Positions 48,761-62,523 of a stretch of 64,000 nt of DNA are shown one piece after another (position 1 is the stretch's first letter; every line of letters begins with the position of its first letter). The position numbers were made by a program, and so were the translations under genes. A model generated the notes under the pieces. It worked only from the letters and a program-made list of their open reading frames with translations, was not told the origin of the DNA and did not search any database. The DNA is taken from contig CAWCPV010000015.1 in assembly GCA_963797555.1 (NCBI GenBank), positions 1-64,000 of the forward strand. Direction: 5' to 3'. The DNA comes from an uncultured Gammaproteobacteria bacterium (lineage in GTDB: Bacteria > Pseudomonadota > Gammaproteobacteria > CAWCPV01).

Positions 48761-49196
48761 TCAGCCTCAAGCCCGCCAGAGGGCATGCCGTGCGAGCAAC
48801 CAGTGTGGGCTCCGCACGTGGAACCGCGGCAGAAGGATGTGCGCCGACAGCCGGTCCAAGACTCGAGGCGCAGCTCCGTTTGCCCGTCGGACAGGGCTTT
48901 GGGCAAGCGGTGGACCAGGGCCGCTCCGTCGGCCGCTCGCTTGGTCTTCACGGTCATTGGCGTCAGACGCGCCCGAAGCTACCTCCCATCACCCCGTCGA
49001 GTCGCATGCGCTTTCGTAGTTCTGGGACTCTCGGGCCCGCGCCGTTTCCCAATGGGAGTCCCATCTATGGACAGTGCTCCGTTGCTTGAATCGGCAGGGA
49101 CGGTACGCCGCAACTGCGGCATGATGAGCGGATCTCGTCAAGTTCGGGGGCTTAAGGATCTGACCCGCAGCCCGGATGCTTGCTCCGGGTCTCCAC

Positions 49197-49292
49197 CGTC
49201 ATTCCGGCTGGGAAGCCGGAATCCAGCGGCCACGGACGGCATGGCTCGGCCTCCGTGCGCCTGGATTCCGTACAGTCCCTGTACGGAATGAC
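49197..49292. repeat. CGTC-type REP doublet (palindromic element)
   Basis: CGTCATTCCGGC-tgggaa-GCCGGAATCCAG ... CTGGATTCCGTACAG-tcc-CTGTACGGAATGACG. Confidence 0.65.
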
Positions 49293-49382
49293 GAGCTGCG
49301 CGTAAGGACGTGGGTTTGACCGGGCGTACGCGACGTGCTGCAATGGAACGCGTGATAAGCGGTTCATCAGGAAGGTCCCGGC

Positions 49383-49889
49383 ATGAGTGCAGCGCAACGT
49401 TTCGTTCCCGATCCGAGAGTCGAGGCCGCCATCGAATTCGGCCTCGGCCTTGAGATCGATGCCCCGTGGGAGACCAATGGACAAGGACAGATCATCCTGA
49501 ATCCGCCCATCGGTCTCGCCCACGCCAAGCGTGCCGACCGCATTGCCGTGGCCATCCGGTCGCTCCTGCCCGACTGGCACGTGTGGTCAGGAGTCGGGAT
49601 CCATACCGCCGACGGGGTGAAAGCGCCCGATCTGGCCGTCGCTCCCCCGGATTTTGACGAAGCCACGGACTCGCGGGGCTTCCTCGTCCGCGCACCGGAC
49701 ATCTGCGTGGAGATCATGTCGCCCTCCAATACCTGGGAAGAGATGCGTCACAAGACACTGCTCTATCTGGCCGCCGGGGCGAAGGAGGTGTGGGTGTGCG
49801 ACGAAAGCGGGGCGCTGCATTTCTTCGACGGCGCCGGAGAGCGAAGCGCATCGGCCTTGGCCACCGGGATGGCCAGCAGTATCGGCTGA
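49383..49889 (+). CDS. Uma2 family endonuclease
   Basis: GVKAPDLA, APDICVEIMSPSN, YLAAGAKEVW. Confidence 0.9.
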   Translation: MSAAQRFVPDPRVEAAIEFGLGLEIDAPWETNGQGQIILNPPIGLAHAKRADRIAVAIRSLLPDWHVWSGVGIHTADGVKAPDLAVAPPDFDEATDSRGFLVRAPDICVEIMSPSNTWEEMRHKTLLYLAAGAKEVWVCDESGALHFFDGAGERSASALATGMASSIG

Positions 49890-50119: not shown

Positions 50120-52214
50120 CTAGCCGGAAATAAATATTTCTTTCGCGTGGAACTGACTTACTCCAATGTCATCTGTGCCGGACCACTTTCCAACAATATC
50201 TATGTGTTTTTCTAGGAACTTCAGCTTCTTCCCAGGCCATGGACAGAGTAGATCCTCTGGGTTCTTGGGCGATCCACCCACATAGACCGATATCTGGCCA
50301 TGAGTAAAGATAATCCCAATTGTCTTTCCATTGTATTTGGCATCAAAGCCACCCATTCGGTTCCCGCAGCCATTATTACCTATCGGTGTAACCGTGATCG
50401 TCTCAGATTTAGATGGGGTATTGATAGCATGGACAGCCGCTGTGGGCTCGATCACTATAGCAAGCGGACAGGGATTTACGTCACAGGCATGCCCCGTCAA
50501 GCACTTGTCCCAATCCTTGGATCGAAAATACAAGATGACATGCGCAGATTCTTGTCGCATCGCCCGCCTTCCGGTCTCCCAGTCGACATCGCCACGGCCG
50601 ATGCGAAAGTAAAGTTCGTCGTAACTACTGCACATGAAGCCATATTGTGCGTTATTGTCGTCGGCCTTAATGGAGAATGACCAGAAGCCGCCAGACCCGG
50701 ATGGTTCTTCGACCGTCGTCATTCTCCCAGACAACGTCATGGTTCCGTGGGCTAGAATCTTGTCGACCTGGCCAGCTTCTTGGTTCAGCCGAACGCGTTC
50801 GGCGATGAGTTGCCGTTTCTCGGCCTCGTTCGCAGCATCATTCTTCTGCACAACCCCAGGTACGCCCTTCTCCGGTGCCCATGTGGTGGCGTCACGCGGC
50901 TTATTGCCAATCGTGTAGATGACTCCGATAACCAATGCCACCAGGACCAGGGCCACGAGGCGCGGCCAAGGGCGTTTGGGCTGAGGAGGCGTGGGCGTGG
51001 GGGGAGGTTTAACAGTCTGCCTTGGTACTGGGCCGGGCGCCGGGCGCGTCGGCTGAGGCTGGGGTTGCGGGGGTGGTTGGGGCTTCGGTTGCGCGGCGGG
51101 TGTGGGCTGCGCAGCCAAGGTAGATACGGTGGTGGGCGGTCGGAATCGGGTTCGCACCACGAGGGGCTCGAGGACCTGGATCCACTGCCTGTAGCTCGCC
51201 CGGGCGTTACGGCTTATGGCATCCGCACCCTTCCAGAAGGTCGCTTCAAAGGGGCGCTTTAGGGAGTCCTGGGTAGCCGCGTAGGTCTGGCGGTAGTGGG
51301 CGTAGAACTCGCTGTTGTCCGCTTCGAAGTTGTCGTAGGACGGATCGACCTCCGGCCAGCGATAGCGGGAAACATAAGCTTCGAGTCCCCTCGGACCCAG
51401 GACATGGAGGTAGAAGTAGGGGAAGCAAGCAAACAGAAAGTAGTGCACCCCGACCGCCACGGACCAGGTGTCCGTGAGCAGGTCCACGGTCACAGTGCTC
51501 TGCCCGTCGGATGCCTGACTCCGTTGCGCGTTGATCTCTGGCGCCACCCACTCGTCGCCCTTGCCGAAGGTGGTGGGCGCATCCTCCGGGCGATCGACCA
51601 CCACCCCGCTGTCATAGTCGATCAGGACCAAGTGCCCATCGGTTCAAATTGACGAACAAATTCGGTGGGTTGACGTCGGCGTGGATGTAGTACAGCTCGC
51701 GGAGGATGGCGAAGCACTCCGCCAGCTCCAGCGCCAACTGGCGCTTGAGGTTGCTGTCAAGATGCAGGAACTCCCGGAAGCGGTGGTCCAGGCGGTGGTC
51801 CAGGATGTCCTCGAAGCTGGTGAAGTAGCTCGGGTCGAGCCAATGGGCGGCGTACCCCAGCACCGACTGATGACCCAGTTGTCCTTCGAAGCTGAACTGA
51901 GGCAAGGCGTACAGACCCGGAACCGCAGCGAGTGACTTGCCCTCGCGGGCCAGCTCCTCCTGCTTGCTGCGGACCCGTGCCTGGAGTTTGCGAATCGTCT
52001 CGTAGCTGCGCCGGTCGTTGCCTCCCGGGTCGGGCTTGAAGAGCTTGATCACCAGAGCCACCGGCGGGGATGCATTGTTCACCGCCAGGCATCGGTAAAT
52101 CTGTCCGAAACCCCCTTCGCTGAAGGGCCGCGCGTCAATCTCGACGGATTGCAACTGCTCCCAGCCAGCCGTGAGACCGCTACTCTGCGATTGCGTGATT
52201 CGAATGGCAGGCAT
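50120..52214 (-). CDS. Ser/Thr kinase-TM-extracytoplasmic domain protein (copy B), frameshift near 51640
   Basis: EGGFG, VIKLF, HADVNPPN / IDYD, APE, DTWS; Pro-rich linker; TM; Cys-containing beta-rich C-terminus. Confidence 0.8.
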
Positions 52215-52221: not shown

Positions 52222-52395
52222 AAGGCCGGGGGCCGCCCCTAAGTCCTCTCCTCGTCGGCGCGCGGGCCTATCGGGGCTCCGGGTGTGCAAGGAGCGGAGT
52301 ACGGCTTGGTGATCGCGACAGGTGCCTTTCGTGCCGCACTCTGGGAATGGGGAGTCAGGGTGCTTCAGTTCCGGAGATTGGCAACTGACCGACAG

Positions 52396-52596
52396 TTACG
52401 GGATTCCACGGAGAAGACGAAATACAAACCGAGCCAGCCGAAAGGGCGCCAGAAATAACGCCCTTACTACATACGCCGCCAATGTGCCAACCATTTCTGC
52501 CCACCCCTCTTTTCCTAGGCTGAATCTTCCCAACGCCACCAGCATGACAATCAATATGCCAGCGGCCACGAGTAACGGAAGTGCAGTTTCCTTCAT
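52396..52596 (-). CDS. Small membrane hypothetical protein
   Basis: MKETALPLLVAAGILIVMLVALG...; hydrophobic; start uncertain. Confidence 0.45.
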   Translation of the reverse strand: MKETALPLLVAAGILIVMLVALGRFSLGKEGWAEMVGTLAAYVVRALFLAPFRLARFVFRLLRGIP

Positions 52597-52776
52597 CCCT
52601 TCGTCGTCTCCTAACATCCCGTTCATCCGACGCCAGCGGCAACGCAGCGCACGCATCTCCTCGGTTAGCTTCGTCCGGCAATCGCAATACTGTTTCCCGA
52701 AGTGGGAGAGGCCGTGGCCGTTCGCCGGTAACTGCTGCTGTGCGCGCCGCGGGCGGCCGGGTCTGCCAATCCGTCT

Positions 52777-52914
52777 TCACCGTTTTTTCTCGTACATGTA
52801 ACCCGTGCCATTACAATTAGGGCAAGTCTTTTCTTTTCCTGGCCCCAATAAACCATGGTCACGGACGGTCCCTTTGCCGCCACATCTTGGACACTCGACC
52901 TTCTTTCCAGACAT
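52777..52914 (-). CDS. 45-aa DnaJ-type zinc-finger protein (not in the ORF track)
   Basis: MSGKKVECPRCGGKGTVRDHGLLGPGKEKTCPNCNGTGYMYEKKR; GAGGGA RBS. Confidence 0.75.
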   Translation of the reverse strand: MSGKKVECPRCGGKGTVRDHGLLGPGKEKTCPNCNGTGYMYEKKR

Positions 52915-53384
52915 TGGAGGTTCCCTCGCGTGATGAGCGTGTCAAATCCCAATCGCTATGCCCCACTATATCGCTATGCCCCACCATAAAGAGACGACGC
53001 CTAAAGCTCCAGCAACCGCCGGCCACCCTCCTTCAGCCACCAGCCCAGACGCTCGCCCATCCTGCGCCAGGGTTCCGCAGCCTGTGCGGGGGGCCACGTA
53101 GCTGCGCTGAGGAGGCCTCGATGCTCCGCCGCGCCACGGTGCGAAGTCGATTTGGGCGGGGTCGGCCAGACGAGAAGTTTTATGAGTGAAGCGCCATCTG
53201 AGCTGGAGGTCTGCCGAGACGACCTCCGCAATGTCTCCTCTGCGGCGGGACCCCCTCCGGCCCCGAAAGCCACCGCGGCGATGGGGAGATGGGCCTCCAC
53301 TCCCGTGAGCAACGCACTGGCTCCCAACGAGACCGACGACAGGGGAGGGCGACGCGCCAACGCCAGTCGCATTTGTTCACCTTC

Positions 53385-56000
53385 TCACACGTCCGGCCCG
53401 AACTTGAAGTTGAACTCCCTGAATGGCTCGAACATGTTGCTATCGGTCGGCACCGGCAACGGGGCCGACCCGCGGATGGCGGCCAAGGCGGAACGGTCAA
53501 ACGCATCATTGCCGCTGCTCCGTTCGACCTTCACGTCCGTGACCTCGCCGCCGGGCTGCACGCGGACACGCACCACGCACGACAGTCCCGGCGGCACGCC
53601 GAAAGGTTCCTGCCAGTTCCGTTGGACCGTGGCCCGAATGCGGTCATTATACTGGCTCAGGATATGCTGGGTCTGTCGCACCGGCTGCCTTGCCAACGAC
53701 TGCTCCTTGATCCGCCATAGTCGAATACCGCCAGTTTCAGGATTCGAGAAGGCAAAAGTCTTGCTGTCGGGGGCGAAGGCGATGCGCTTCTGGCAGCACC
53801 CAGTTTCCCTGAGGTCAAATAGGAGACGTCCATCAGCTACCCGCCACAAGCGCAGTACGGTTGGCGTGCCAGTGTACTTGTCATTGACAATACCCTGATA
53901 ATAATCTAATAATTGACCGTCGGCGAAGCCCAGGAGCATTGTGCCGTCCGGACTGAAAGCCAGCTCGGTGCCCTCCAGGCGGTAAGAGCCGGATGGAAGA
54001 AAGTCCAATTGATGCAGGCTGCGGCCGTCGCTCATTTGCTGGAGCTCTATGAAGTGCCTGTTGTCGTCATTTCCTCCATGCTGTTTCCACACGGCGCGGT
54101 ACCTCCCGCCCGGTGAAACTTGCGCCTGACGCCCTCGCACCCAAGAAATGGAGAAGTCTTTTTCATCCTCTTTCCTGACATCGGTCAGGCGTCCGTCGCT
54201 GAGCCGCCATAGTTGGGTCTCGGTCCGGAACCTGACAGCAATTTCGCGCGCACCCCGGCTGAACCGAATCTCATGGATCTCCTCATACGGTCGGTTTACG
54301 TCGATGGTATGTGCCAAGCTGCCGTCTGTCGTCCGCCAAAGCTTGATTGTGCTCTTCTGGCCTACCGTAGCCAGTGCAACGAGTTGTCCGTTGGGACTGT
54401 AGGTGAACGCGGTGGGCCGATCCCCGCAAGGGTACCCAGTTTTTGGAGGTAACGAGATGGTAAGAAGAATGCGTCCGCTCGCGACATCAAAAAAAACTGG
54501 ATCCCCAGATTACAACCGTACGCAACAGCCAGGGTGCCCGCGTCGGGACTGAAGGCGAGAGCATCCGCTTCGCCCAGCGTCCTAAATTGTTTATCGGGTG
54601 GCCATGTGGTACTAATGCGCTTCTCAGGCGGTGGTGGAGCGACGCCGGGAGGTTGCATTGGGTACTGTGCCCGGCGCACCGGCTGCGGTTTATTACCAAT
54701 TGTGTAGATGACTCCGATAACCAATGCGACCACGACCAAGCCCACGAGGCGCGGCCAAGTGGCTTTGGGCTGAGGAGGTGCTGGGGTGGGAGGAGGTTTA
54801 GGAGTCTGCCTGGGGACTAGGCCGGGCGCGGGCGCCGGGCGGGTCGGCGGAAGCTGAGGTTGTGGGGGCTGGACTTGCGCGGCGGGTGTGGGCTGCGCAG
54901 CCAAGGTAGATACGGTGGTGGGCGGTCGGAATCGGGTTCGCACCACGAGGGGCTCGAGGACCTGGATCCACTGCCTGTAGCTCGCCCGGGCGTTACGGCT
55001 TATGGCATCCGCACCCTTCCAGAAGGTCGCTTCAAAGGGGCGCTTTAGGGAGTCCTGGGTAGCCGCGTAGGTCTGGCGGTAGTGGGCGTAGAACTCGCTG
55101 TTGTCCGCTTCGAAGTTGTCGTAGGACGGATCGACCTCCGGCCAGCGATAGCGGGAAACATAAGCTTCGAGCTCCCTCGGACCCAGGACATGGAGGTAGA
55201 AGTAGGGGAAGCAAGCAAACAGAAAGTAGTGCACCCCGACCGCCACGGACCAGGTGTCCGTGAGCAGGTCCACGGTCACAGTGCTCTGCCCGTCGGATGC
55301 CTGACTCCGTTGCGCGTTGATCTCTGGCGCCACCCACTCGTCGCCCTTGCCGAAGGTGGTGGGCGCATCCTCCGGGCGATCGACCACCACCCCGCTGTCA
55401 TAGTCGATCAGGACCAAGTGCCCATCGGTTCAAATTGACGAACAAATTCGGTGGGTTGACGTCGGCGTGGATGTAGTACAGCTCGCGGAGGATGGCGAAG
55501 CACTCCGCCAGCTCCAGCGCCAACTGGCGCTTGAGGTTGCTGTCAAGATGCAGGAACTCCCGGAAGCGGTGGTCCAGGCGGTGGTCCAGGATGTCCTCGA
55601 AGCTGGTGAAGTAGCTCGGGTCGAGCCAATGGGCGGCGTACCCCAGCACCGACTGATGACCCAGTTGTCCTTCGAAGCTGAACTGAGGCAAGGCGTACAG
55701 ACCCGGAACCGCAGCGAGTGACTTGCCCTCGCGGGCCAGCTCCTCCTGCTTGCTGCGGACCCGTGCCTGGAGTTTGCGAATCGTCTCGTAGCTGCGCCGG
55801 TCGTTGCCTCCCGGGTCGGGCTTGAAGAGCTTGATCACCAGAGCCACCGGCGGGGATGCATTGTTCACCGCCAGGCATCGGTAAATCTGTCCGAAACCCC
55901 CTTCGCTGAAGGGCCGCGCGTCAATCTCGACGGATTGCAACTGCTCCCAGCCAGCCGTGAGACCGCTACTCTGCGATTGCGTGATTCGAATGGCAGGCAT
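53385..56000 (-). CDS. Ser/Thr kinase-TM-WD40-TolA/TonB C-terminal domain protein (copy A), frameshifts near 55426 and 54492
   Basis: Same kinase as copy B; AFSPD/IKLW/LRLW WD40 repeats; C-terminal RATVQRNW..VRVQPGGEV..SSGNDAFDRSALAAI..APLPVP. Confidence 0.8.
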
Positions 56001-56094: not shown

Positions 56095-57039
56095 TCATTC
56101 ATCTTGCCGCGGGGGCAAACCCGGGCGCCGCCGCCCAGCCTGGTAACGCACCGTCGGCGCGGTGACGATCACGCCCAAGGACGCATCGTCGTCCAGCAAA
56201 TGCTCGGTCCGGAGCTCGTCGGCATAGGCCCTGAGGGCGGCACTCAAGGCGCCATCGGTCGTGTTCTCGGGCAGGGAGAAGAACCCATTGAGCGTGGCGA
56301 AGAAACGCAACATCGGGGGTTCCATTTTGATCCATGTGGTACCGTCCTTGGTGCGCCCGACGTTAACCTGATCATGGGAAAAGATGCCGTCCGTGCACGT
56401 CATCACAATGTCTCCGTACTCAAAGTCTTTGCCCAAGCAGAGAATTGCCGGCTGAGCTTCCTCGTCGCGCGCGGAAATGGAGATCATGCGGTACAGTGCC
56501 TCTTTGCCCATCTCATTCTGCACTGTGTGTGGGTTGAGGTAGTTCAGAGCGTTCCACGGGGCGTAATGGTTTGGTGAGAGATCGTTGAAGTTGCCCCGAA
56601 GGTGCCAGAGGCCGCCATTGCCCACGTAGCCCAGCCACAACTCCGCCATGCTTTCTACGGCCACGATTAAAGTGGTGCCGAAGCTCTGCTCGGGGTCCAC
56701 CTGGATCCCCTCCCGCGCGCAGTACTCTGCCGCCTTCTGCTTGACGTGCACCCGGGCCTGGGCGAAAAGCTGCCGCAGAGTGCAAGCATCCATGCCCGGT
56801 ACCCCGGCGATGCTGGCAGCCGCTGCCTCAACTGCCCACTGAGCGCCGAGCCCAGCGTGCGCCTGCGAGCCCAAGCCGTCGGCGACAATTACCGCCCGCA
56901 GGCCGCACCTCGGATTGTCCGCCGTGGCAACCGCGTCCTGGTTCTCGCTCGGGTCCTTCCTGTAGGTGGTTGAGGCTACGCCTATGAGAGAGGAAGGGGA
57001 CTCCATCTGCATCGCCACTGTCCGCCGCCGCTTAAACAC
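56095..57039 (-). CDS. PP2C-family protein phosphatase
   Basis: ENQDA, VADGLGS, GTTL, CTDG, DDAS. Confidence 0.88.
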   Translation of the reverse strand: MFKRRRTVAMQMESPSSLIGVASTTYRKDPSENQDAVATADNPRCGLRAVIVADGLGSQAHAGLGAQWAVEAAAASIAGVPGMDACTLRQLFAQARVHVKQKAAEYCAREGIQVDPEQSFGTTLIVAVESMAELWLGYVGNGGLWHLRGNFNDLSPNHYAPWNALNYLNPHTVQNEMGKEALYRMISISARDEEAQPAILCLGKDFEYGDIVMTCTDGIFSHDQVNVGRTKDGTTWIKMEPPMLRFFATLNGFFSLPENTTDGALSAALRAYADELRTEHLLDDDASLGVIVTAPTVRYQAGRRRPGLPPRQDE

Positions 57040-57082: not shown

Positions 57083-57741
57083 TCAGGCGATTTTCACGTT
57101 CTTGCCCGAAGAGACCGATTCGATGAAGAATTTCCGCAGGTCTTCGTCCCGGTAAGTGGTCCGGTAGCGCAGAGGCGAACTCGCCAGATCCTGAAGGAGG
57201 GCCTCGGCCTCAGTGTCCTTCTGGCCGACAGCCGCAAAGAGCGTGGTGCACAGGGTGATCTTCAGGTTCTGTTTGACTCCTGTGCCACCGTTCTGGGGTC
57301 GCCGCCGCTCATACCGTCGGACATGACGACGATGACCACGCTGCGGGGCACCGACTCGGTGCTCGATCCCGAGAGAAACTGCTGCGCAACCCCCTCGGCA
57401 CAGCGCAAGGCCACCCCAATGTCGGTTCCCCCACCGTGGCCGATCATGGGGTTGTAGTTCGCATAGTCGTCGATGTCCTTAACAGAGCTCGCCGGAGTGT
57501 GGACGGTGGCGCTGGTGTCAAACGTCACTACCGCGATGGAGAAGTTCGACTTCACACGGCTCTTCTTGAGCAGGCCCAACAGTTCCTTGACAGCCTGCTC
57601 CACCATCTGCGCCTTACTGACTTTGCTGGCGGTCATCTCGCCCATGGACCCGCTGCCGTCGAGCACGAGAATACCGAGCTGGCGGAAGGTGGCGGGCACA
57701 ACGGGAGGAGCATCAAAGTCTGTGACCAATTGGTCTTTCAT
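57083..57741 (-). CDS. vWA-domain protein (TerY-like), frameshift near 57277
   Basis: LDGSGSM MIDAS, GGGTDIG, MSDG; shifted frame continues KQNLKITLCT...LRKFFIESVS to TGA at 57083. Confidence 0.8.
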
Positions 57742-57900: not shown

Positions 57901-58219
57901 GCCAGTCAGCAGTCTCGTGTGGATAGCGCAGACGCGGAACGCCCAAGACCGAAACGCCCCGTGCGGCTCAGGCCCCAGAAACTCAGAGCGGCGCCTTGGT
58001 CGCTGATGAGATCCGAGAGGTTCTCGATAGCCTCGGACATCCGGTAGTCGTGGACCATCGGATGGAGCTTGCAGGTGTCACGAACGGTTCCGAGCACGTC
58101 AACCCCCGAGTTCCAGTGTACACGCCATTGCGCGTGGTTCCTCCGCTCCTGGGGCGGGTCGCCCTCCGTCATCGAGCGATGCGATGAATCGTCTGCTGCT
58201 GGTCCGCAGTCTTTCGGTC

Positions 58220-58344
58220 GCAGCGCCGCTCACCTGATTGCGCAGCGCACGGCGCTTGAGCCAAATGTCGAGGGTTTCCCGGCCGCAAGCGAATCCCGCG
58301 CAGTCATGGCGATCGGTCAACGGTTCCGGCGCACCGATCGTCAC
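58220..58344 (-). pseudogene. Truncated GNAT toxin (TacT/AtaT-like)
   Basis: PEPLTDRHDCAGFACGRETLDIWLKRRALRNQ, then similarity is lost. Confidence 0.75.
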
Positions 58345-58631
58345 CCCTTCTCCCAGGGCGGCACGGTCTGCATGGTCTTGCGCAGCCGCTCGTTGGGTTG
58401 CGGCGGGGCCTCGAGCCGTGCCTGGAAGGCGGCGAAGGCTGCGGCGCCAACGCGCAACAGCGCGCGATCGAGCACGGCCTCCTCGGCGGCCCGACGCGTG
58501 GCGTCGAGGATGAACTCGGTGCGGTTCTTGCCCGTAGCGCGGGCGGCACGGTCGATCAGGTCGCGTTCCTCTGGCTTGATACGCAGGTTGAGGGTCTGGC
58601 GCTTGCTGGGTGGTTCGTGGACTGTCGACAT
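58341..58631 (-). CDS. DUF1778 antitoxin (TacA-like)
   Basis: LNLRI..ERDLIDRAA..TEFIL..AEEAVLD..PNERL..PW. Confidence 0.9.
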   Translation of the reverse strand: MSTVHEPPSKRQTLNLRIKPEERDLIDRAARATGKNRTEFILDATRRAAEEAVLDRALLRVGAAAFAAFQARLEAPPQPNERLRKTMQTVPPWEKG

Positions 58632-58667
58632 GGCTTCTCTCCGGTTTCCTCCGATACTACCAGCCGC

Positions 58668-58686
58668 GTAACGACATTGTCACTAC
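58668..58686. promoter_or_regulatory. Palindromic operator upstream of the DUF1778 antitoxin
   Basis: GTAacGACAtTGTCacTAC imperfect inverted repeat. Confidence 0.5.
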
Positions 58687-58692
58687 AGGCGG

Positions 58693-58806
58693 GTACGTCG
58701 GGCTGGGCGCGCTTGTGAGTAGCCGGAGTATTTCGATATGAGCCGGCGCGCCGTAAGCCGATGCTTGCCAGGGATGTCGGGTTACGCTGCGCTAACCCGA
58801 CCTACG
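58693..58806. repeat. GTAG-family REP doublet (REPIN-like), copy 1
   Basis: GTACGTCGGGCTGGGCGCG...GTCGGGTTACGCTGCGCTAACCCGACCTAC. Confidence 0.75.
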
Positions 58807-59030
58807 GCTTGCGCCCCGAGGAGGCTTGGTGGCTGTTCGGCATGACCGCCCTCGCGACGGGCGGCATCAATGATGCGGACAAGGGTTGGCGGGTTGCGCT
58901 GTGCTAGGCGCTGGGCGACGTGGCCCAGAACGGGCTGATCAAGCGGCGGCGCCTGGCGGCGAAGGAGGGGCAGGGCGGGCATACGGCACTGCCGTTGTTC
59001 GAGGATTGAATTCCTCCAGAGAAGGCAAGA

Positions 59031-59064
59031 TTGACTCGCCTGAGAGTCCCAACCAATATGGTTG
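59031..59064 (+). promoter_or_regulatory. TA promoter with overlapping operator
   Basis: TTGACT -35 box and CAACCA-ata-TGGTTG palindrome over the -10 region. Confidence 0.5.
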
Positions 59065-59085
59065 CAACCAGCGAGGTATATTTCC

Positions 59086-59370
59086 ATGCCTTCCCTCACC
59101 TTGAAAGACATTCCGATGCCCCTGATGGAACGGCTGCGCGCACGCGCCGCGGAGGATCAGCGGAGCCTGAATCGGGAAGCCATCTGGCTGCTGGAGCAGG
59201 CCCTGGAGCCATCCGGCGATGCCGCGCTGCGTCTGCAGCAAGAATGCGAAGCCCAGGTTGCCGCCTGGAATGCGCTGGCTGGACGCTGGCAGGGAACCGA
59301 GGAAGAAACGGATGCGGTGGTCGAAGACATCTACCAATCCCGCACCCGGGGTCGAGAGATCACGCTTTGA
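59086..59370 (+). CDS. FitA-like RHH antitoxin
   Basis: MPSLTLKDIP..ERLRARA..RSLNRE. Confidence 0.85.
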   Translation: MPSLTLKDIPMPLMERLRARAAEDQRSLNREAIWLLEQALEPSGDAALRLQQECEAQVAAWNALAGRWQGTEEETDAVVEDIYQSRTRGREITL

Positions 59371-59777
59371 AGCTGCTGGATACGGACGTTTGCATCGAGA
59401 TCCTGCGCGGCAACCCACGGGTTCTGCAACAGCGCACCGCTATCCCGGACCGGATCGCCACGACCTGGATCACAGCCTGCGAGCTGGCCTACGGTGCAGC
59501 CAATTCCCGGCACCCGAAAGAAAAGCAGACCCTGGTGACGGAATTCCGGTCCACGCTGCCGCTCGTTGACTTCAACCTGGCCAGCGCACTGCTCTTCGGG
59601 AGCCATAAGGCACGCCTGCGTCGGGGTGGAGCGTCCGTCGCGGATGCGGACCTGATGATCGCTTCGATTGCCCTCGCCCACGGTGCGACCCTGGTCACTG
59701 GCAATACCCGTCATTAGGAGCGGTCCGATGGTTTGCTGTTGGAGAACTGGATACGCGAGCCGCCGCGGGAGCGGTAG
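59367..59777 (+). pseudogene. VapC/PIN toxin with in-frame TAG at 59715
   Basis: LLDTDVCI, ELAYG, DLMIASIA, LVTGNTRH*ERSDGLLLENW. Confidence 0.8.
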
Positions 59778-59846
59778 CGCCCGCTGCGGGAACCAATCGC
59801 CCGCGATGAATCGACCTGCCGACCATACCAGTGCGGCTCGAAACAT

Positions 59847-59940
59847 TGCAGGTAAAGCGCGACGCCATCACTGCGGCGGGAAAAGAGTTCGGTGCCCGAC
59901 GCATTCGCGTGTTCGGCTCGGCGGCACGCGGGGACCGCCA
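59847..59940 (+). pseudogene. MNT nucleotidyltransferase N-terminal fragment
   Basis: LQVKRDAITAAGKEFGARRIRVFGSAARGD, then truncated. Confidence 0.65.
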
Positions 59941-60023
59941 CCTTCGGCCTTATGTGCGGGTGGAGGCCGTAGACCTGTGAGCAAGCCATGGAGCCCTGCG
60001 CACTGCACATTCTCGACAGACGG

Positions 60024-60136
60024 GTAGGTCGGGTTAGGCGCGCTTGCGAGTGGCCGGAGTATTTGGATGGCTGCGACGCGCGCCGTAACCCGACGCTTGC
60101 CGTGGATGTCGGGTTACGCTGCGCTAACCCGACCTG
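60024..60136. repeat. GTAG-family REP doublet (REPIN-like), copy 2
   Basis: GTAGGTCGGGTTAGGCGCG...CGTAACCCGAC...GTCGGGTTACGCTGCGCTAACCCGACCTGC; homologous to 58693-58806. Confidence 0.75.
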
Positions 60137-60157
60137 CCATCTGCCTCCGTTCGACAC

Positions 60158-60940
60158 ATGAATAGCGACCTGCGCGACCAGAGCACCATCCTCGACGCAC
60201 TGAATCGCCTGGCGTTCCGCCGGCCTCGGTAGCCCTGTACATTGATGCCGATAATCAGTCTCACCAATGCGCGAAGGGACTGCTGAGCGTGTTTCGGGAG
60301 GATCTCGACACCCGCGTCGTTAGCGCCACCATTGCCGGGAACAATCATGGCAAACAGATCGACAGATGGCGCGACGAACTGGTCGCCGCGCTTCCCGACC
60401 TCGTGGTGCACCCGCTCGCCGCGCCTGACCGCAAGCAGGCGGCGGATGTTGCCCTGCTGATGGCGTTGGGGGCTGACCTGGAACGGCATATCTGCGAGGG
60501 CGAGGTGGTGGTGATCGTTTCCTGGGATGAGCTATTGATCGGCGCCGCCGAACAGATCAAGGCGCGCGGCTGCAGGACCTTGATCGCTTACGCGGACGGC
60601 GAGATCCCGCCGGCCCGCAATCCACACCTGACGACCCTGCTGCTGCCCGCTTTGGCGAAACCGGTCTCGGTCCCTCGTGCGGCGCCGGTCGTCGCCCGGC
60701 GGCTACCGAGACCGCGCCTGCGCGGCTGCCGGACCGGGCTCCCGACGGCGCCGTCGCGTCGGTGCTCGCACAGCTCGCGGCATGTGTACGCAGCAGCCGG
60801 GTGGGGGCTATGGCGCTTCGGATGTGGGCCAAGCCCTGTCGAAGCTCGGCTACGACAAAGCGGCGCGAGCCCGCTTCCTTGCGTCGGTGCCTGGCCTCCG
60901 TGTGCGCGGCACTGGCCCGAACAAAGTCTTGGAGTTCTGA
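60158..60940 (+). pseudogene. NYN-domain (PIN-like) protein with C-terminal LOTUS/HTH-like domain, two frameshifts
   Basis: ALYIDADN, KQAADVAL, IVSWD; C-terminal ASDVGQALSK..FLASVPG in another frame. Confidence 0.65.
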
Positions 60941-61545
60941 GACGGTCGAGGAATCCGGCGCCGCACCTAGCCAGTTTCGTCAGCCGATAACCCAGCAATT
61001 CCCGGGGGTAGACGAGATTGTCCAGATGCGATTCGAGCCTCGAAATAACATCCTCAAGACCGTAACGTGGACCTGGCGCCGTGGAATCTGAAGATCGCCC
61101 AACTGCGCGAGACGCGGATGCTCGGGCGCTGGAACGAGCGGTCCATGGAGGCACGAGTCGCTGCTGAACCGGGAGCGCTATCGGCGCTTGGATGTCTTCT
61201 TCGCCAGGGGGGCCAGGCAATCCGAGTCGCACCGGACAGCGTGATTCGGTCGCTCCTCGCCGGGCGCCTCGCTGTCGGGCCACTCGCGACGATTTCTTCA
61301 CAGGCTCAGAACAGTTCGTTTCTATTGACCAATCTCAAGGAACGTTAGACTATGATTTGCCGCCTAAGGGGTGGGGATCGCGAAATCTCTTTTCCATAGG
61401 CGCTGATAGGGGGAAATCGGAGTCCAGAGTGGGGAGCTGCCTTCGTGCAACTCTTTGATGGAATCCGTTTTCTCGCCGCTCATCGCCTCCAGGCAGCCAA
61501 GACGATGCCATATAAGACACTAACTCACCAGAGGAGACCAACAGG

Positions 61546-62523
<978 letters not shown>

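What the first reader, a model, noticed from the sequence alone, without database searches (positions are those of the whole stretch)
53385..54700. Kinase ectodomain made of a WD40 propeller plus a TolA C-terminal-like domain: possible decoy sensor
Seen: after the TM come WD40-type repeats and a terminal domain (IRATVQRNW...SSGNDAFDRSALAAIRGSAPLPVP..F.F) typical of TolA domain III/TonB_C. Known: TolA-III is the co-receptor of filamentous phage g3p and group A colicins, and its partner TolB is a beta-propeller. Inference: a Tol-mimic fused to a kinase could detect invaders or envelope stress and trigger phosphorylation signalling. I do not recall this fusion as described.
Basis: partly seen in the sequence, partly recalled or inferred. 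Interest (0 to 1): 0.75.

Follow-up and report, generated by a model that had tools for sequence, protein, structure and literature searches.

The report
Broken receptor kinase carrying a TolA copy
A membrane Ser/Thr kinase gene has a periplasmic sensor made of a WD40-type propeller plus a copy of the bacterium's own TolA end domain, an unusual fusion, but in this assembly frameshifts break the gene and its operon.

Summary
On the minus strand, after a TM helix (54695-54757), come six WD40-type repeats and a C-terminal TolA domain III (53388-53708): Pfam TonB_2 3e-19, TIGR02794 above cut-off, and all eight best PDB fold matches are TolA-III. This domain is sister to the genome's own TolA (58-59% aa). 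The homology runs past the tolA stop into a tolB 5' remnant, so it is a segmental copy of the tolA-tolB junction grafted onto the end of the propeller. The propeller is WD40-type, with no sign of TolB ancestry.

The gene lies in a vWA-PP2C-kinase operon, TerY-P-like by gene content. It has a tandem paralogue that shares a 1133-nt near-identical kinase cassette but carries a different ectodomain. Intact kinase relatives carry other ectodomains (FGE-sulfatase, WD40, BON). TolA-III was annotated on 0 of 59 relatives.

The "kinase ectodomain" is not one ORF. A 1-nt insertion splits both kinase copies, a T8 run shifts the frame in the first propeller blade, and the vWA gene is shifted too. It is either a recent pseudogene or a local assembly error, and reads could not settle which. 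The decoy-sensor idea remains untested speculation. I rate it a new variant of a known kind, of moderate interest.

The parts
57083..57741 (-). vWA (TerY-like) gene, frameshifted. The N-part is 57262-57741. The C-part is in another frame and ends at 57083.
   Evidence: VWA_2 8.7e-11 and VWA 4.8e-9. PADLOC TerY is weak at 4.3e-4. The C-terminal piece VKQNLKITLCTTLFA...FFIESVSSGK lies in a second frame. It matches the single-frame 240-aa vWA of L043.
56095..57039 (-). PP2C-type Ser/Thr phosphatase gene, intact ORF of 314 aa
   Evidence: PP2C_2 PF13672 at 2e-16. Stp1/IreP PP2C at 2.3e-8, below cut-off. Homologous PP2C genes (37-44% id) sit between vWA and kinase in L040-L043.
55398..56000 (-). 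Kinase 2 N-lobe with catalytic loop (GGFGQIY, VIKLF, HADVNPPN). The frame ends after a 1-nt insertion at 55427-55428.
   Evidence: Alignment to intact homologues P0154-P0157, three of which pass the Pkinase PF00069 cut-off.
54362..55429 (-). Kinase 2 C-lobe (LIDYDSG, WVAPE), Pro-rich linker, TM helix (54695-54757) and first propeller blade. The frame is lost at the T8 run, 54489-54496.
   Evidence: This piece is 53-57% identical to P0154-P0156 over the C-lobe.
53712..54600 (-). Six-repeat WD40-type beta-propeller (periplasmic), spanning the T8 frameshift
   Evidence: AF2 model with blocks mostly at pLDDT 75-96. Foldseek to the PkwA WD40 domain 5yzv at 5e-13. VIA Z 18.1 to RbBP5 and Z 14.0 to the PknD sensor. 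Family relatives are P0005, P0030, P0040, P0120 and P0044.
53388..53708 (-). TolA domain III, a diverged copy of the genome's own tolA 3' end
   Evidence: It is 58% aa identical to own TolA and 71% nt identical over 340 nt. It is sister to own TolA with 98/95 support. All conserved TolA-III columns are kept.
53004..53372 (-). Remnant of the tolB 5' end copied together with the tolA 3' end (open 123-aa ORF). Homology covers about the first 50 codons.
   Evidence: The DNA alignment continues through the tolA stop and spacer into tolB. BLASTP to own TolB gives 44% over 41 aa, E 1e-4. A 15-nt gap removes the codons matching TolB 'TIEIT'.
50120..52214 (-). Kinase 1, a tandem paralogue with the same 1-nt insertion and an unrelated 250-aa ectodomain with no Pfam match
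   Evidence: The cassettes are 1133 nt long with 2 mismatches (52221-51089 against 56007-54875). They then diverge in the linker and TM and are unrelated beyond.

Best explanation
This is a lineage-specific receptor Ser/Thr kinase gene in a vWA-PP2C-kinase operon (the TerY-P type of phospho-switch).

Anatomy: the protein has a cytoplasmic Hanks-type kinase, a Pro-rich linker and one TM helix. Its periplasmic sensor is a six-bladed WD40-type propeller. A copy of the organism's own TolA domain III has been grafted onto the end of that propeller.

Origin: the graft came from a segmental duplication of the tolA-tolB junction, and a decayed tolB 5' stub still follows the gene.

Inferred mechanism when the gene was intact:
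- Something binds the periplasmic propeller/TolA-III.
- That changes kinase activity across the membrane.
- The PP2C resets the phosphorylation.
- The vWA protein is the likely partner or substrate.

TolA-III is a ready-made protein-docking surface. It would tie the sensor either to TolA's own periplasmic partners, so that it reads the state of Tol-Pal and the envelope, or to molecules that target TolA.

In this assembly the system is dead or dying. Both kinase paralogues share a 1-nt insertion in the catalytic core, the sensor carries a second shift in a T8 run, and the vWA gene is shifted.

Shown: domains, origin, operon and breaks. Inferred: topology, signalling route and ligand.
For: Domain identity:
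- Pfam, NCBIfam and PDB sequence hits.
- AF2 of the domain alone has pLDDT 86.6. Foldseek ranks 1-8 are all TolA-III, with TM 0.49-0.85 and rmsd 1.9-3.3.

Origin from own tolA:
- The genome's tolA lies in a ruvCAB-ybgC-tolQRAB-pal-cpoB cluster.
- It is the best match to the kinase's domain (59%, E 2.9e-39). The best of 60 same-class genomes reach 48-49%, and none of the 53 with a match has a second copy.
- The two are sisters in the tree with 98/95 support.
- Homology continues into the spacer and the tolB 5' end.

Selection after the graft:
- dN/dS is 0.35 at dS 0.88.
- There are no indels in 313 coding nt, against 16 gap columns in about 125 nt of the tolB stub.
- The conserved TolA-III residues are kept.

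Propeller family:
- Relatives end exactly at the graft point, and one of them (P0044) is itself kinase+TM+propeller.

Kinase family:
- 59 hits with variable ectodomains.
- The vWA-PP2C-kinase order is conserved in 4 of 10 genomic loci from three phyla.
- The TerY-P triad is described in PMC10542128 (passages read).

Breaks.
Against: - No ligand, partner or phosphorylation target was tested.
- The fusion is known from a single MAG (84.6% complete) with no relative closer than class, so conservation of the architecture cannot be shown.
- The kinase pieces themselves give no Pfam hit at E <= 0.1. Kinase identity rests on intact homologues.
- PADLOC support for TerY-P is weak. vWA scores 4.3e-4, PP2C gives nothing, and STK_OB reaches 0.005 for one homologue only.
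- The four frameshifts mean either that the system is not functional or that the assembly is locally wrong.
- All three pieces of kinase 2 are still fully open, which fits a very recent inactivation but equally fits sequencing error.
- The pairwise dN/dS mixes the constrained tolA branch with the kinase branch. The kinase branch is about twice as long (0.43 against 0.20), so constraint on the grafted copy is relaxed.
Confidence: 0.6

Rival explanations
1. Integrated decoy. The TolA-III on the kinase mimics the cell's TolA. TolA-targeting invaders such as filamentous-phage g3p or group A colicin translocation domains bind it and switch on the kinase, giving an alarm or an abortive response.
For: - TolA-III is the surface used by such invaders. 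Solved complexes found with this domain include g3p-TolA (2x9a, 1tol), CTXphi pIII-TolA (4g7x) and the colicin A/N-TolAIII entries (3qdp, 3qdr).
- The domain was copied from the host's own TolA and kept its conserved residues.
- The kinase family has interchangeable ectodomains, and this genome holds two cassettes with different ones. The locus sits among toxin-antitoxin genes.
- TerY-P-like modules were reported as anti-phage systems (PMC10542128, passage citing Gao et al. 2020).
Against: - No binding or phage data exist.
- The gene is broken here.
- No second example of the fusion was found, so there is no sign of recurrent selection for it.
- The copy is 41-42% diverged in protein from the real TolA, which a good mimic need not be.
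- The triad is not a profile member of the tested TerY-P family.
Confidence: 0.12
2. The frameshifts are assembly or consensus errors and the operon is intact and active in the organism. Local errors could arise in a duplicated 1.1-kb cassette and at a homopolymer.
For: - All three frames of kinase 2 and both of kinase 1 are open right up to the junctions, with no residues lost relative to homologues.
- One site is a T8 run.
- The shared kinase insertion lies inside a 1133-nt near-identical repeat, where read placement and polishing are least reliable.
- The assembly also contains odd T92 and A29 runs.
Against: - Two of the three distinct sites (AAC-C-GAT and the vWA site near CAGGAGTCAAAC) are not homopolymers.
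- Five other Pkinase genes match the profile end to end in open frames of 282-1356 aa.
- About 12 genes of the tol-pal region are intact, and 96 ORFs reach 1000 aa or more.
- Frameshift-like ORF junctions are no commoner at homopolymers (3.3%, 3.5% and 2.7% for runs of 6, 7 and 8 or more) than at random positions (3.1%). This is a crude test that flagged only 2 of 5 known sites.
- A second vWA-PP2C-kinase locus on contig 7 is also riddled with shifts.
Confidence: 0.3
3. The T8 run is a slippage switch. Transcriptional or replicative slippage to 9 (or 6) T restores the sensor in a fraction of transcripts or cells, which would be phase-variable expression.
For: - The frame would be restored by 9 or 6 T (read).
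- A/T runs of 8 or more are rare here, 28 in 5.3 Mb.
- Slippage on long A/T runs is established in other bacteria (recalled, no call).
Against: The kinase core carries a separate non-slippery 1-nt insertion, so restoring the sensor frame alone would not give a working protein. There are no expression data.
Confidence: 0.05
4. The 310/374-aa propeller-TolA-III ORF is an independent gene, not part of the kinase.
For: It was called as a separate 310-aa protein in the public collection (P0002).
Against: - It has no signal peptide or TM although both of its domains are periplasmic types.
- It lacks the first blade, which lies just upstream in the kinase's frame.
- The stop-to-stop frame opens only 13 nt upstream of the T8 run.
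- Relatives of the propeller carry an N-terminal TM or a kinase+TM.
Confidence: 0.03

Closest known systems
TolA domain III (E. coli, P. aeruginosa and V. cholerae TolA; Pfam PF06519/PF13103, TIGR02794)
   Same: The sequence profile, the conserved SSGN..FDRSA..A...S.PLP.P signature and the helix + beta-beta-alpha-beta fold are shared. The closest relative is the genome's own TolA.
   Different: The domain is not at the end of a TolQR-anchored, long-helical TolA in a tol-pal operon. It is appended to a propeller on a receptor kinase. Partner binding is untested.
TerY-P triad (TerY-like vWA + PP2C + Ser/Thr kinase; Anantharaman et al. 2012 and Gao et al. 2020, as cited in PMC10542128, passages read)
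   Same: The same three genes occur in the same order. That order is conserved in 4 of 10 loci of kinase relatives.
   Different: Described TerY-P kinases end in a zinc ribbon or an OB fold and are cytoplasmic. This family has a TM helix and interchangeable periplasmic domains. PADLOC profiles match only weakly. Defence activity is not shown for this family.
Receptor Ser/Thr kinases with a beta-propeller sensor: M. tuberculosis PknD (1rwi, NHL propeller) and T. curvata PkwA (5yzv, WD40)
   Same: A Hanks-type kinase is joined to a propeller. PkwA is the best Foldseek and PDB-sequence hit for the propeller. The PknD sensor aligns at Z 14.0.
   Different: The kinase subfamily differs. The propeller here has six degenerate WD40-type blades. 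No known example carries a TolA-III after the propeller.
Other TonB_2-ending multidomain periplasmic proteins (caspase-like + Sel1 + TonB_2, seen in two same-phylum genomes)
   Same: A TolA/TonB-type C-terminal domain is used as a terminal module on a non-Tol signalling-type protein.
   Different: The N-terminal domains differ and there is no kinase. I read their domains by eye from the sequences and did not run them against Pfam. Their TonB_2 match is weaker (2.2e-14 and 6.9e-17).

Membership tests
TolA domain III (PF06519 / TIGR02794) | Profile match above the curated cut-off | tested here: met
   PF06519 scores 34.1 bits (cut-off 25) and PF13103 scores 69.3 (cut-off 22). TIGR02794 scores 68.6 (cut-off 59.45), covering only model positions 276-362.
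TolA domain III (PF06519 / TIGR02794) | TolA-III fold | tested here: met
   The AF2 model has pLDDT 86.6. Foldseek ranks 1-8 are TolA-III structures (6s3w, 1lr0, 2x9a, 3qdp, 1s62, 1tol, 3qdr, 4g7x), E 3e-7 to 3e-4.
TolA domain III (PF06519 / TIGR02794) | Conserved residues of TolA-III in relatives | tested here: met
   In the 29-row alignment A4, all 4 invariant and 11 nearly invariant columns are kept by the kinase copy.
TolA protein (whole) | N-terminal TM anchor, long helical domain II, gene inside the tolQRAB-pal cluster | tested here: not met
   The domain follows a propeller on a kinase gene. The genuine tolA is on contig 9. So this is a TolA-III domain, not a TolA.
TolA domain III (function) | Binds the TolB N-terminus and other Tol-Pal partners | not testable with these tools
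   This needs binding assays.
TonB C-terminal domain (PF03544) | Closer to TonB CTD than to TolA-III | tested here: not met
   PF03544 scores 35 bits, weaker than TonB_2. The 20 PDB sequence hits at E <= 0.01 include TolA entries but no TonB. TonB CTDs first appear at Foldseek rank 9, at 9.6e-4.
WD40 beta-propeller | Propeller fold of WD40 type | tested here: met
   Foldseek to 5yzv at 5e-13, though with low TM of 0.33-0.42. VIA Z 18.1, rmsd 2.8 over 215 residues to 5ov3.
WD40 beta-propeller | Pfam WD40 (PF00400) profile match | tested here: not met
   Only PD40 at 0.0015 (18.9 bits, below the cut-off of 20.9) and Beta-prop_THOC3 at 0.029. The repeats are degenerate.
TolB-type (PD40) propeller | Specific similarity to TolB | tested here: inconclusive
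   There is no tblastn hit to the genome's own tolB. TolB is not among the 50 VIA rows shown. A weak sub-threshold PD40 hit exists.
Hanks-type Ser/Thr protein kinase (PF00069) | Profile match and catalytic motifs in one open frame | tested here: not met
   The motifs GxGxxG, VIK, HxDxxxxN, DYD and APE are all present. However, they are split by a 1-nt insertion, and the pieces give no Pfam hit at E <= 0.1. Of the intact homologues, 3 of 4 pass the PF00069 cut-off.
TerY-P triad | Adjacent vWA, PP2C and Ser/Thr kinase genes | tested here: met
   The order is conserved in L040-L043.
TerY-P triad | Match to the defence-system profiles (TerY, PP2C, STK_OB), with the kinase ending in an OB fold or zinc ribbon | tested here: not met
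   TerY scores only 4.3e-4. PP2C and the kinase pieces give no hit. STK_OB reaches 0.005 for homologue P0155 only. The C-terminus is a TM plus periplasmic domains.

The most novel reading that the evidence does not exclude
A bacterial 'integrated decoy'. A receptor kinase of a vWA-PP2C-kinase immune-type module has captured a copy of the host's own TolA-III, the domain that filamentous phages and group A colicins must grasp. Attack on the Tol system would then be sensed directly in the periplasm and turned into phospho-signalling. The tandem cassette with a different ectodomain would mark a swappable-sensor family.
Probability: 0.1. Interest if true: 0.8.

Novelty: new variant of a known kind. 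Interest (0 to 1): 0.38.

Why it matters
Receptor Ser/Thr kinases in bacteria are common, but their ligands are mostly unknown. Here the origin of a sensor module can be traced precisely. It is a piece of the cell's own tolA-tolB junction, grafted onto the end of a propeller sensor and then kept under some constraint.

If the gene is alive in the organism, it offers a concrete, testable link between the Tol-Pal envelope machine (or its invaders) and phospho-signalling. It would also be an example of sensor-cassette swapping in a widespread but uncharacterised membrane branch of vWA-PP2C-kinase triads.

If it is a pseudogene, it is a snapshot of the birth and death of a domain fusion and has little functional consequence.

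Tried and rejected
- Read support. One public run (X1) held 5% of the sampled words. When laid, only two exact 151-nt contigs fell on the PP2C gene, plus three short unlike pieces. Nothing covered any frameshift site, so there is no information on whether the indels are real.
- Complex prediction of the kinase's TolA-III (alignment A4) with the genome's mature TolB gave the verdict 'no answer' (score 0.09, mark 0.32). It is not evidence either way.
- The search of earlier findings near the locus returned nothing.
- ESM Atlas gave only generic WD40 clusters at 0.82.
- The kinase N-lobe query found no match in 60 same-class genomes.
- A word-based search for long proteins (656-2000 aa) carrying this TolA-III scored none of 71 candidates. 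This is weak evidence.
- Chimeric misassembly with tolA is rejected. The copy is only 69-71% identical in DNA to the genome's tolA and brings its own diverged tolB stub.
- Programmed +1 ribosomal frameshift at the kinase site is rejected by eye. There is no slippery or stop-codon context at AAC-CGA, and the P-site tRNA cannot re-pair (inference).
- My first recollection that this was a 'vWA ternary system' of Kaur et al. 2020 was wrong. Those systems are vWA-MoxR-VMAP. That paper mentions a vWA + PP2C + kinase linkage only in passing, in section 29 (passages read).
- The first GC3-filtered homopolymer test was too strict and was replaced by the one.
- A literature search on TolA + threonine kinase + decoy + filamentous phage listed 12 of 46 papers. 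By title and abstract start, none describes such a fusion.
- Supplementary files of papers were not consulted.
Full report
**What is at the coordinates**

All the genes concerned lie on the minus strand.
- A hydrophobic segment (WPRLVGLVVVALVIGVIYTIG, 54695-54757) follows a Pro-rich linker.
- Downstream I count six repeats by eye, each with an SP(D/N/G)G-type core and an LW(R)-type end.
- After the repeats comes a terminal domain...YNDRIRATVQRNW...SSGNDAFDRSALAAIRGSAPLPVP...FNFKF.

The terminal domain is clearly TolA-type.
- Pfam gives TonB_2 3.1e-19, TonB_C 2.1e-8 and TolA 3.1e-8, all above their cut-offs.
- NCBIfam TIGR02794 (tolA_full) gives 68.6 bits against a cut-off of 59.45, over its last 87 positions.

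**It is not one reading frame**

Three-frame translation shows three pieces.
- The kinase N-lobe and catalytic loop are in one frame (55398-56000).
- The DYD/APE lobe, linker, TM and first blade are in a second frame (54362-55429).
- The remaining blades plus TolA-III are back in the first frame (53388-54509, 374 aa, P0001).

Four intact homologues from metagenomes (P0154-P0157, 49-57% identical over the C-lobe) read NLF(V/I/L)..(N/R)DGH(L/A)VLIDYDSG straight through the first junction. The window therefore carries a 1-nt insertion, AAC-C-GAT at 55427-55428.

The second junction lies in a T8 run (54489-54496). Six or nine T would restore ...NLGIQFF(F)DVASGRILL..., which matches the first blade of the propeller relatives.

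The vWA gene upstream is also shifted. Its C-terminal part, VKQNLKITLCTTLFA...KFFIESVSSGK, is in another frame. The orthologous vWA of locus L043 is a single 240-aa ORF.

The public gene calls for this contig are the separate pieces of 200, 351, 310 and 503 aa.

**The operon and the paralogue**

The gene order is vWA (VWA_2 8.7e-11), then PP2C (PP2C_2 2e-16, intact), then kinase 2, then a 1.1-kb spacer, then kinase 1.

Kinase 1 (50120-52214) shares a 1133-nt cassette with kinase 2. It has two adjacent mismatches and the same insertion. The two copies then diverge through the linker and TM (86-94% identity). Kinase 1 ends in an unrelated ectodomain with no Pfam match.

The kinase identity rests on the intact homologues. 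Three of four pass the Pkinase cut-off, whereas the window's own pieces give nothing at E <= 0.1.

A profile of the family found 59 proteins.
- Five are annotated with FGE-sulfatase, one with WD40 (P0161) and one with BON.
- Most have no annotated ectodomain.
- None is annotated with TolA or TonB families.

In one-genome-per-species contigs, 10 loci encode relatives.
- Four of them (Thermoanaerobaculia, two Longimicrobiaceae, Ca. Thiomargarita nelsonii) have homologous vWA (51-59%) and PP2C (37-44%) directly upstream in the same order.
- None has a hit to the propeller or to TolA-III.

This is the gene content of the TerY-P triad. That triad is described as a vWA + PP2C + kinase phospho-switch, and a variant of it was reported as an anti-phage system (PMC10542128, passages read). 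However, the PADLOC profiles match only weakly (TerY 4.3e-4, nothing for PP2C). Described TerY-P kinases end in a zinc ribbon or an OB fold, not in a TM helix with periplasmic domains.

The neighbourhood holds TacA-type and FitA/PIN toxin-antitoxin genes, a NYN-domain gene and a Uma2 gene.

**The TolA-III domain is a copy of the cell's own**

The genome's real tolA sits in a canonical ruvCAB-ybgC-tolQ-tolR-tolA-tolB-pal-cpoB-queEC cluster on contig 9. Its domain III is 58% identical in protein to the kinase's and 71% identical in DNA over 340 nt.

Among 60 genomes of the same class:
- 53 have exactly one match each, in frames of TolA size.
- The best reach only 48-49% identity.
- G000 alone has two matches.

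In a maximum-likelihood tree of 31 TolA-III rows, the kinase copy and the genome's own TolA are sisters (98/95). The kinase branch is about twice as long, 0.43 against 0.20. One row of that tree, L023, comes from the unpublished genome G039. The result does not depend on it.

The DNA homology continues past the tolA stop codon, through the short spacer and into the start of tolB. The 123-aa ORF right after the kinase gene (53004-53372) aligns to TolB residues 64-104 (44% over 41 aa, E 1e-4). It lacks 15 nt corresponding to 'TIEIT' near the mature TolB N-terminus. So a segment spanning the tolA-tolB junction was duplicated and fused in frame to the end of the propeller gene.

The closest propeller relatives (P0005, P0030, P0040, P0120, P0044) all end within a few residues of that point. 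P0044 is itself a classical kinase + TM + this propeller.

After the graft the domain was not free to decay.
- dN/dS against tolA is 0.35 at dS 0.88.
- There are no indels in 313 coding nt, against 16 gap columns in about 125 nt of the tolB stub.
- Every conserved column of TolA-III is kept.

**Folds**

AF2 of P0001 with a 22-row alignment gave pLDDT 77.5. The model has a propeller (residues 4-266), a low-confidence linker helix and a confident C-terminal alpha/beta domain.

The propeller:
- It matches WD40 structures. Foldseek to the PkwA WD40 domain gives 5e-13, but with low TM, partly because the first blade is missing from this frame.
- VIA gives Z 18.1 to RbBP5 and Z 14.0 to the extracellular sensor of the receptor kinase PknD.
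- TolB is not among the rows shown, and the propeller has no tblastn hit to the genome's tolB. Nothing supports a TolB origin, though this is not an exclusion.

TolA-III folded alone (29-row alignment, pLDDT 86.6):
- Foldseek ranks 1-8 are all TolA-III. They include the complex with the TolB N-terminal peptide (6s3w), the complexes with phage g3p/pIII (2x9a, 1tol, 4g7x) and the colicin A/N-TolAIII entries (3qdp, 3qdr).
- TonB C-terminal domains start at rank 9.
- The PDB sequence search agrees. It lists TolA entries and no TonB at E <= 0.01.

**Are the frameshifts real?**

I could not decide. The only public run with any of the sequence covers none of the sites.

Evidence against a generally error-prone assembly:
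- 96 ORFs reach 1000 aa or more.
- About 12 tol-pal region genes are intact.
- Five other Pkinase genes match end to end in open frames.
- Frameshift-like junctions are not enriched at homopolymers (2.7-3.5% against 3.1% at random positions). The test is crude and flagged only 2 of 5 known sites.
- Two of the three distinct sites are not homopolymers.
- A second vWA-PP2C-kinase locus on contig 7 is also full of shifts.

Evidence for error or very recent inactivation:
- Every piece is open up to its junction with no residues lost.
- The shared kinase insertion lies in a near-identical repeat.

My estimate is about 0.65 real against 0.3 artefact.

**How it most likely works or worked**

Shown:
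- The domain set.
- The origin of the TolA-III.
- The operon.
- The family's variable ectodomains.

Inferred:
- N-in/C-out topology. The kinase needs ATP, and TolA-III and such propellers are periplasmic.
- Signalling from the periplasmic sensor to the kinase.
- Reset by PP2C.
- The vWA protein as partner or substrate.

TolA-III is a docking surface. I cannot separate these two. I give the decoy about 0.1-0.12.

**Novelty**

Receptor kinases with propeller sensors and vWA-PP2C-kinase triads are known. TolA/TonB-type end domains on other multidomain periplasmic proteins also exist. Two same-phylum genomes have proteins of 704-716 aa that I read by eye as caspase-like + Sel1 + TonB_2. A TolA-III copied from the host's own tolA onto a kinase sensor was not found elsewhere in my searches or in one literature search (listing only).

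I classify it as a new variant of a known kind. It is seen in one incomplete MAG and is broken as assembled, so interest is moderate.

Noticed in passing
window 49183-49316: A repeat of about 110-130 nt is present at 14 other places on eight contigs at 76-93% identity, in both orientations. It looks like a REP- or MITE-type element.
   Followed up: no
L002 (G000 contig 7, 319000-333000): A second vWA-PP2C-kinase locus of a different kinase subfamily, followed by Sel1-repeat coding sequence and a TM plus ectodomain fragment 76-88% identical to kinase 1's ectodomain. Nearly every gene is split over several frames.
   Followed up: partly
window 52358-52927: The spacer between the two kinase genes is 90% identical over 581 nt to contig 7 (323434-324013), also downstream of the ecto-1-like fragment. 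The ectodomain and its 3' flank therefore seem to move as a unit.
   Followed up: no
window 53004-53372: The tolB 5' remnant keeps a start codon, an RBS-like GAAGGTG and a signal-peptide-like start. It has lost the 5 codons matching 'TIEIT' of the mature TolB N-terminus, the region that in other bacteria binds TolA-III (the role of the region is recalled and is echoed by the title of PDB 6s3w).
   Followed up: partly
window 57906-60990 and 49383-49889: A cluster of accessory genes: TacA-type antitoxin (58341-58679) with no recognisable toxin match next to it, a FitA-like RHH + PIN pair (59044-59717), a NYN-domain gene (60166-60990) and a Uma2-family gene (49383-49889).
   Followed up: no
window 61546-62523: An ORF made of Gly/Met/Pro-rich 9- and 18-nt repeats (ATGGGCGGC...). 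It has nine listed repeat copies and no Pfam match.
   Followed up: no
L045 683-2833 and L046 676-2790 (genomes G164, G172): Secreted 704-716-aa proteins that by eye combine a caspase-like N-terminal domain, a Sel1-like segment and a C-terminal TonB_2 domain. They are another case of a TolA/TonB-type end module on a signalling-type protein. They were not run against Pfam.
   Followed up: partly
G000 genome: The assembly contains a T92 run and an A29 run. These are unusual for a 63% GC genome and may be assembly artefacts.
   Followed up: no
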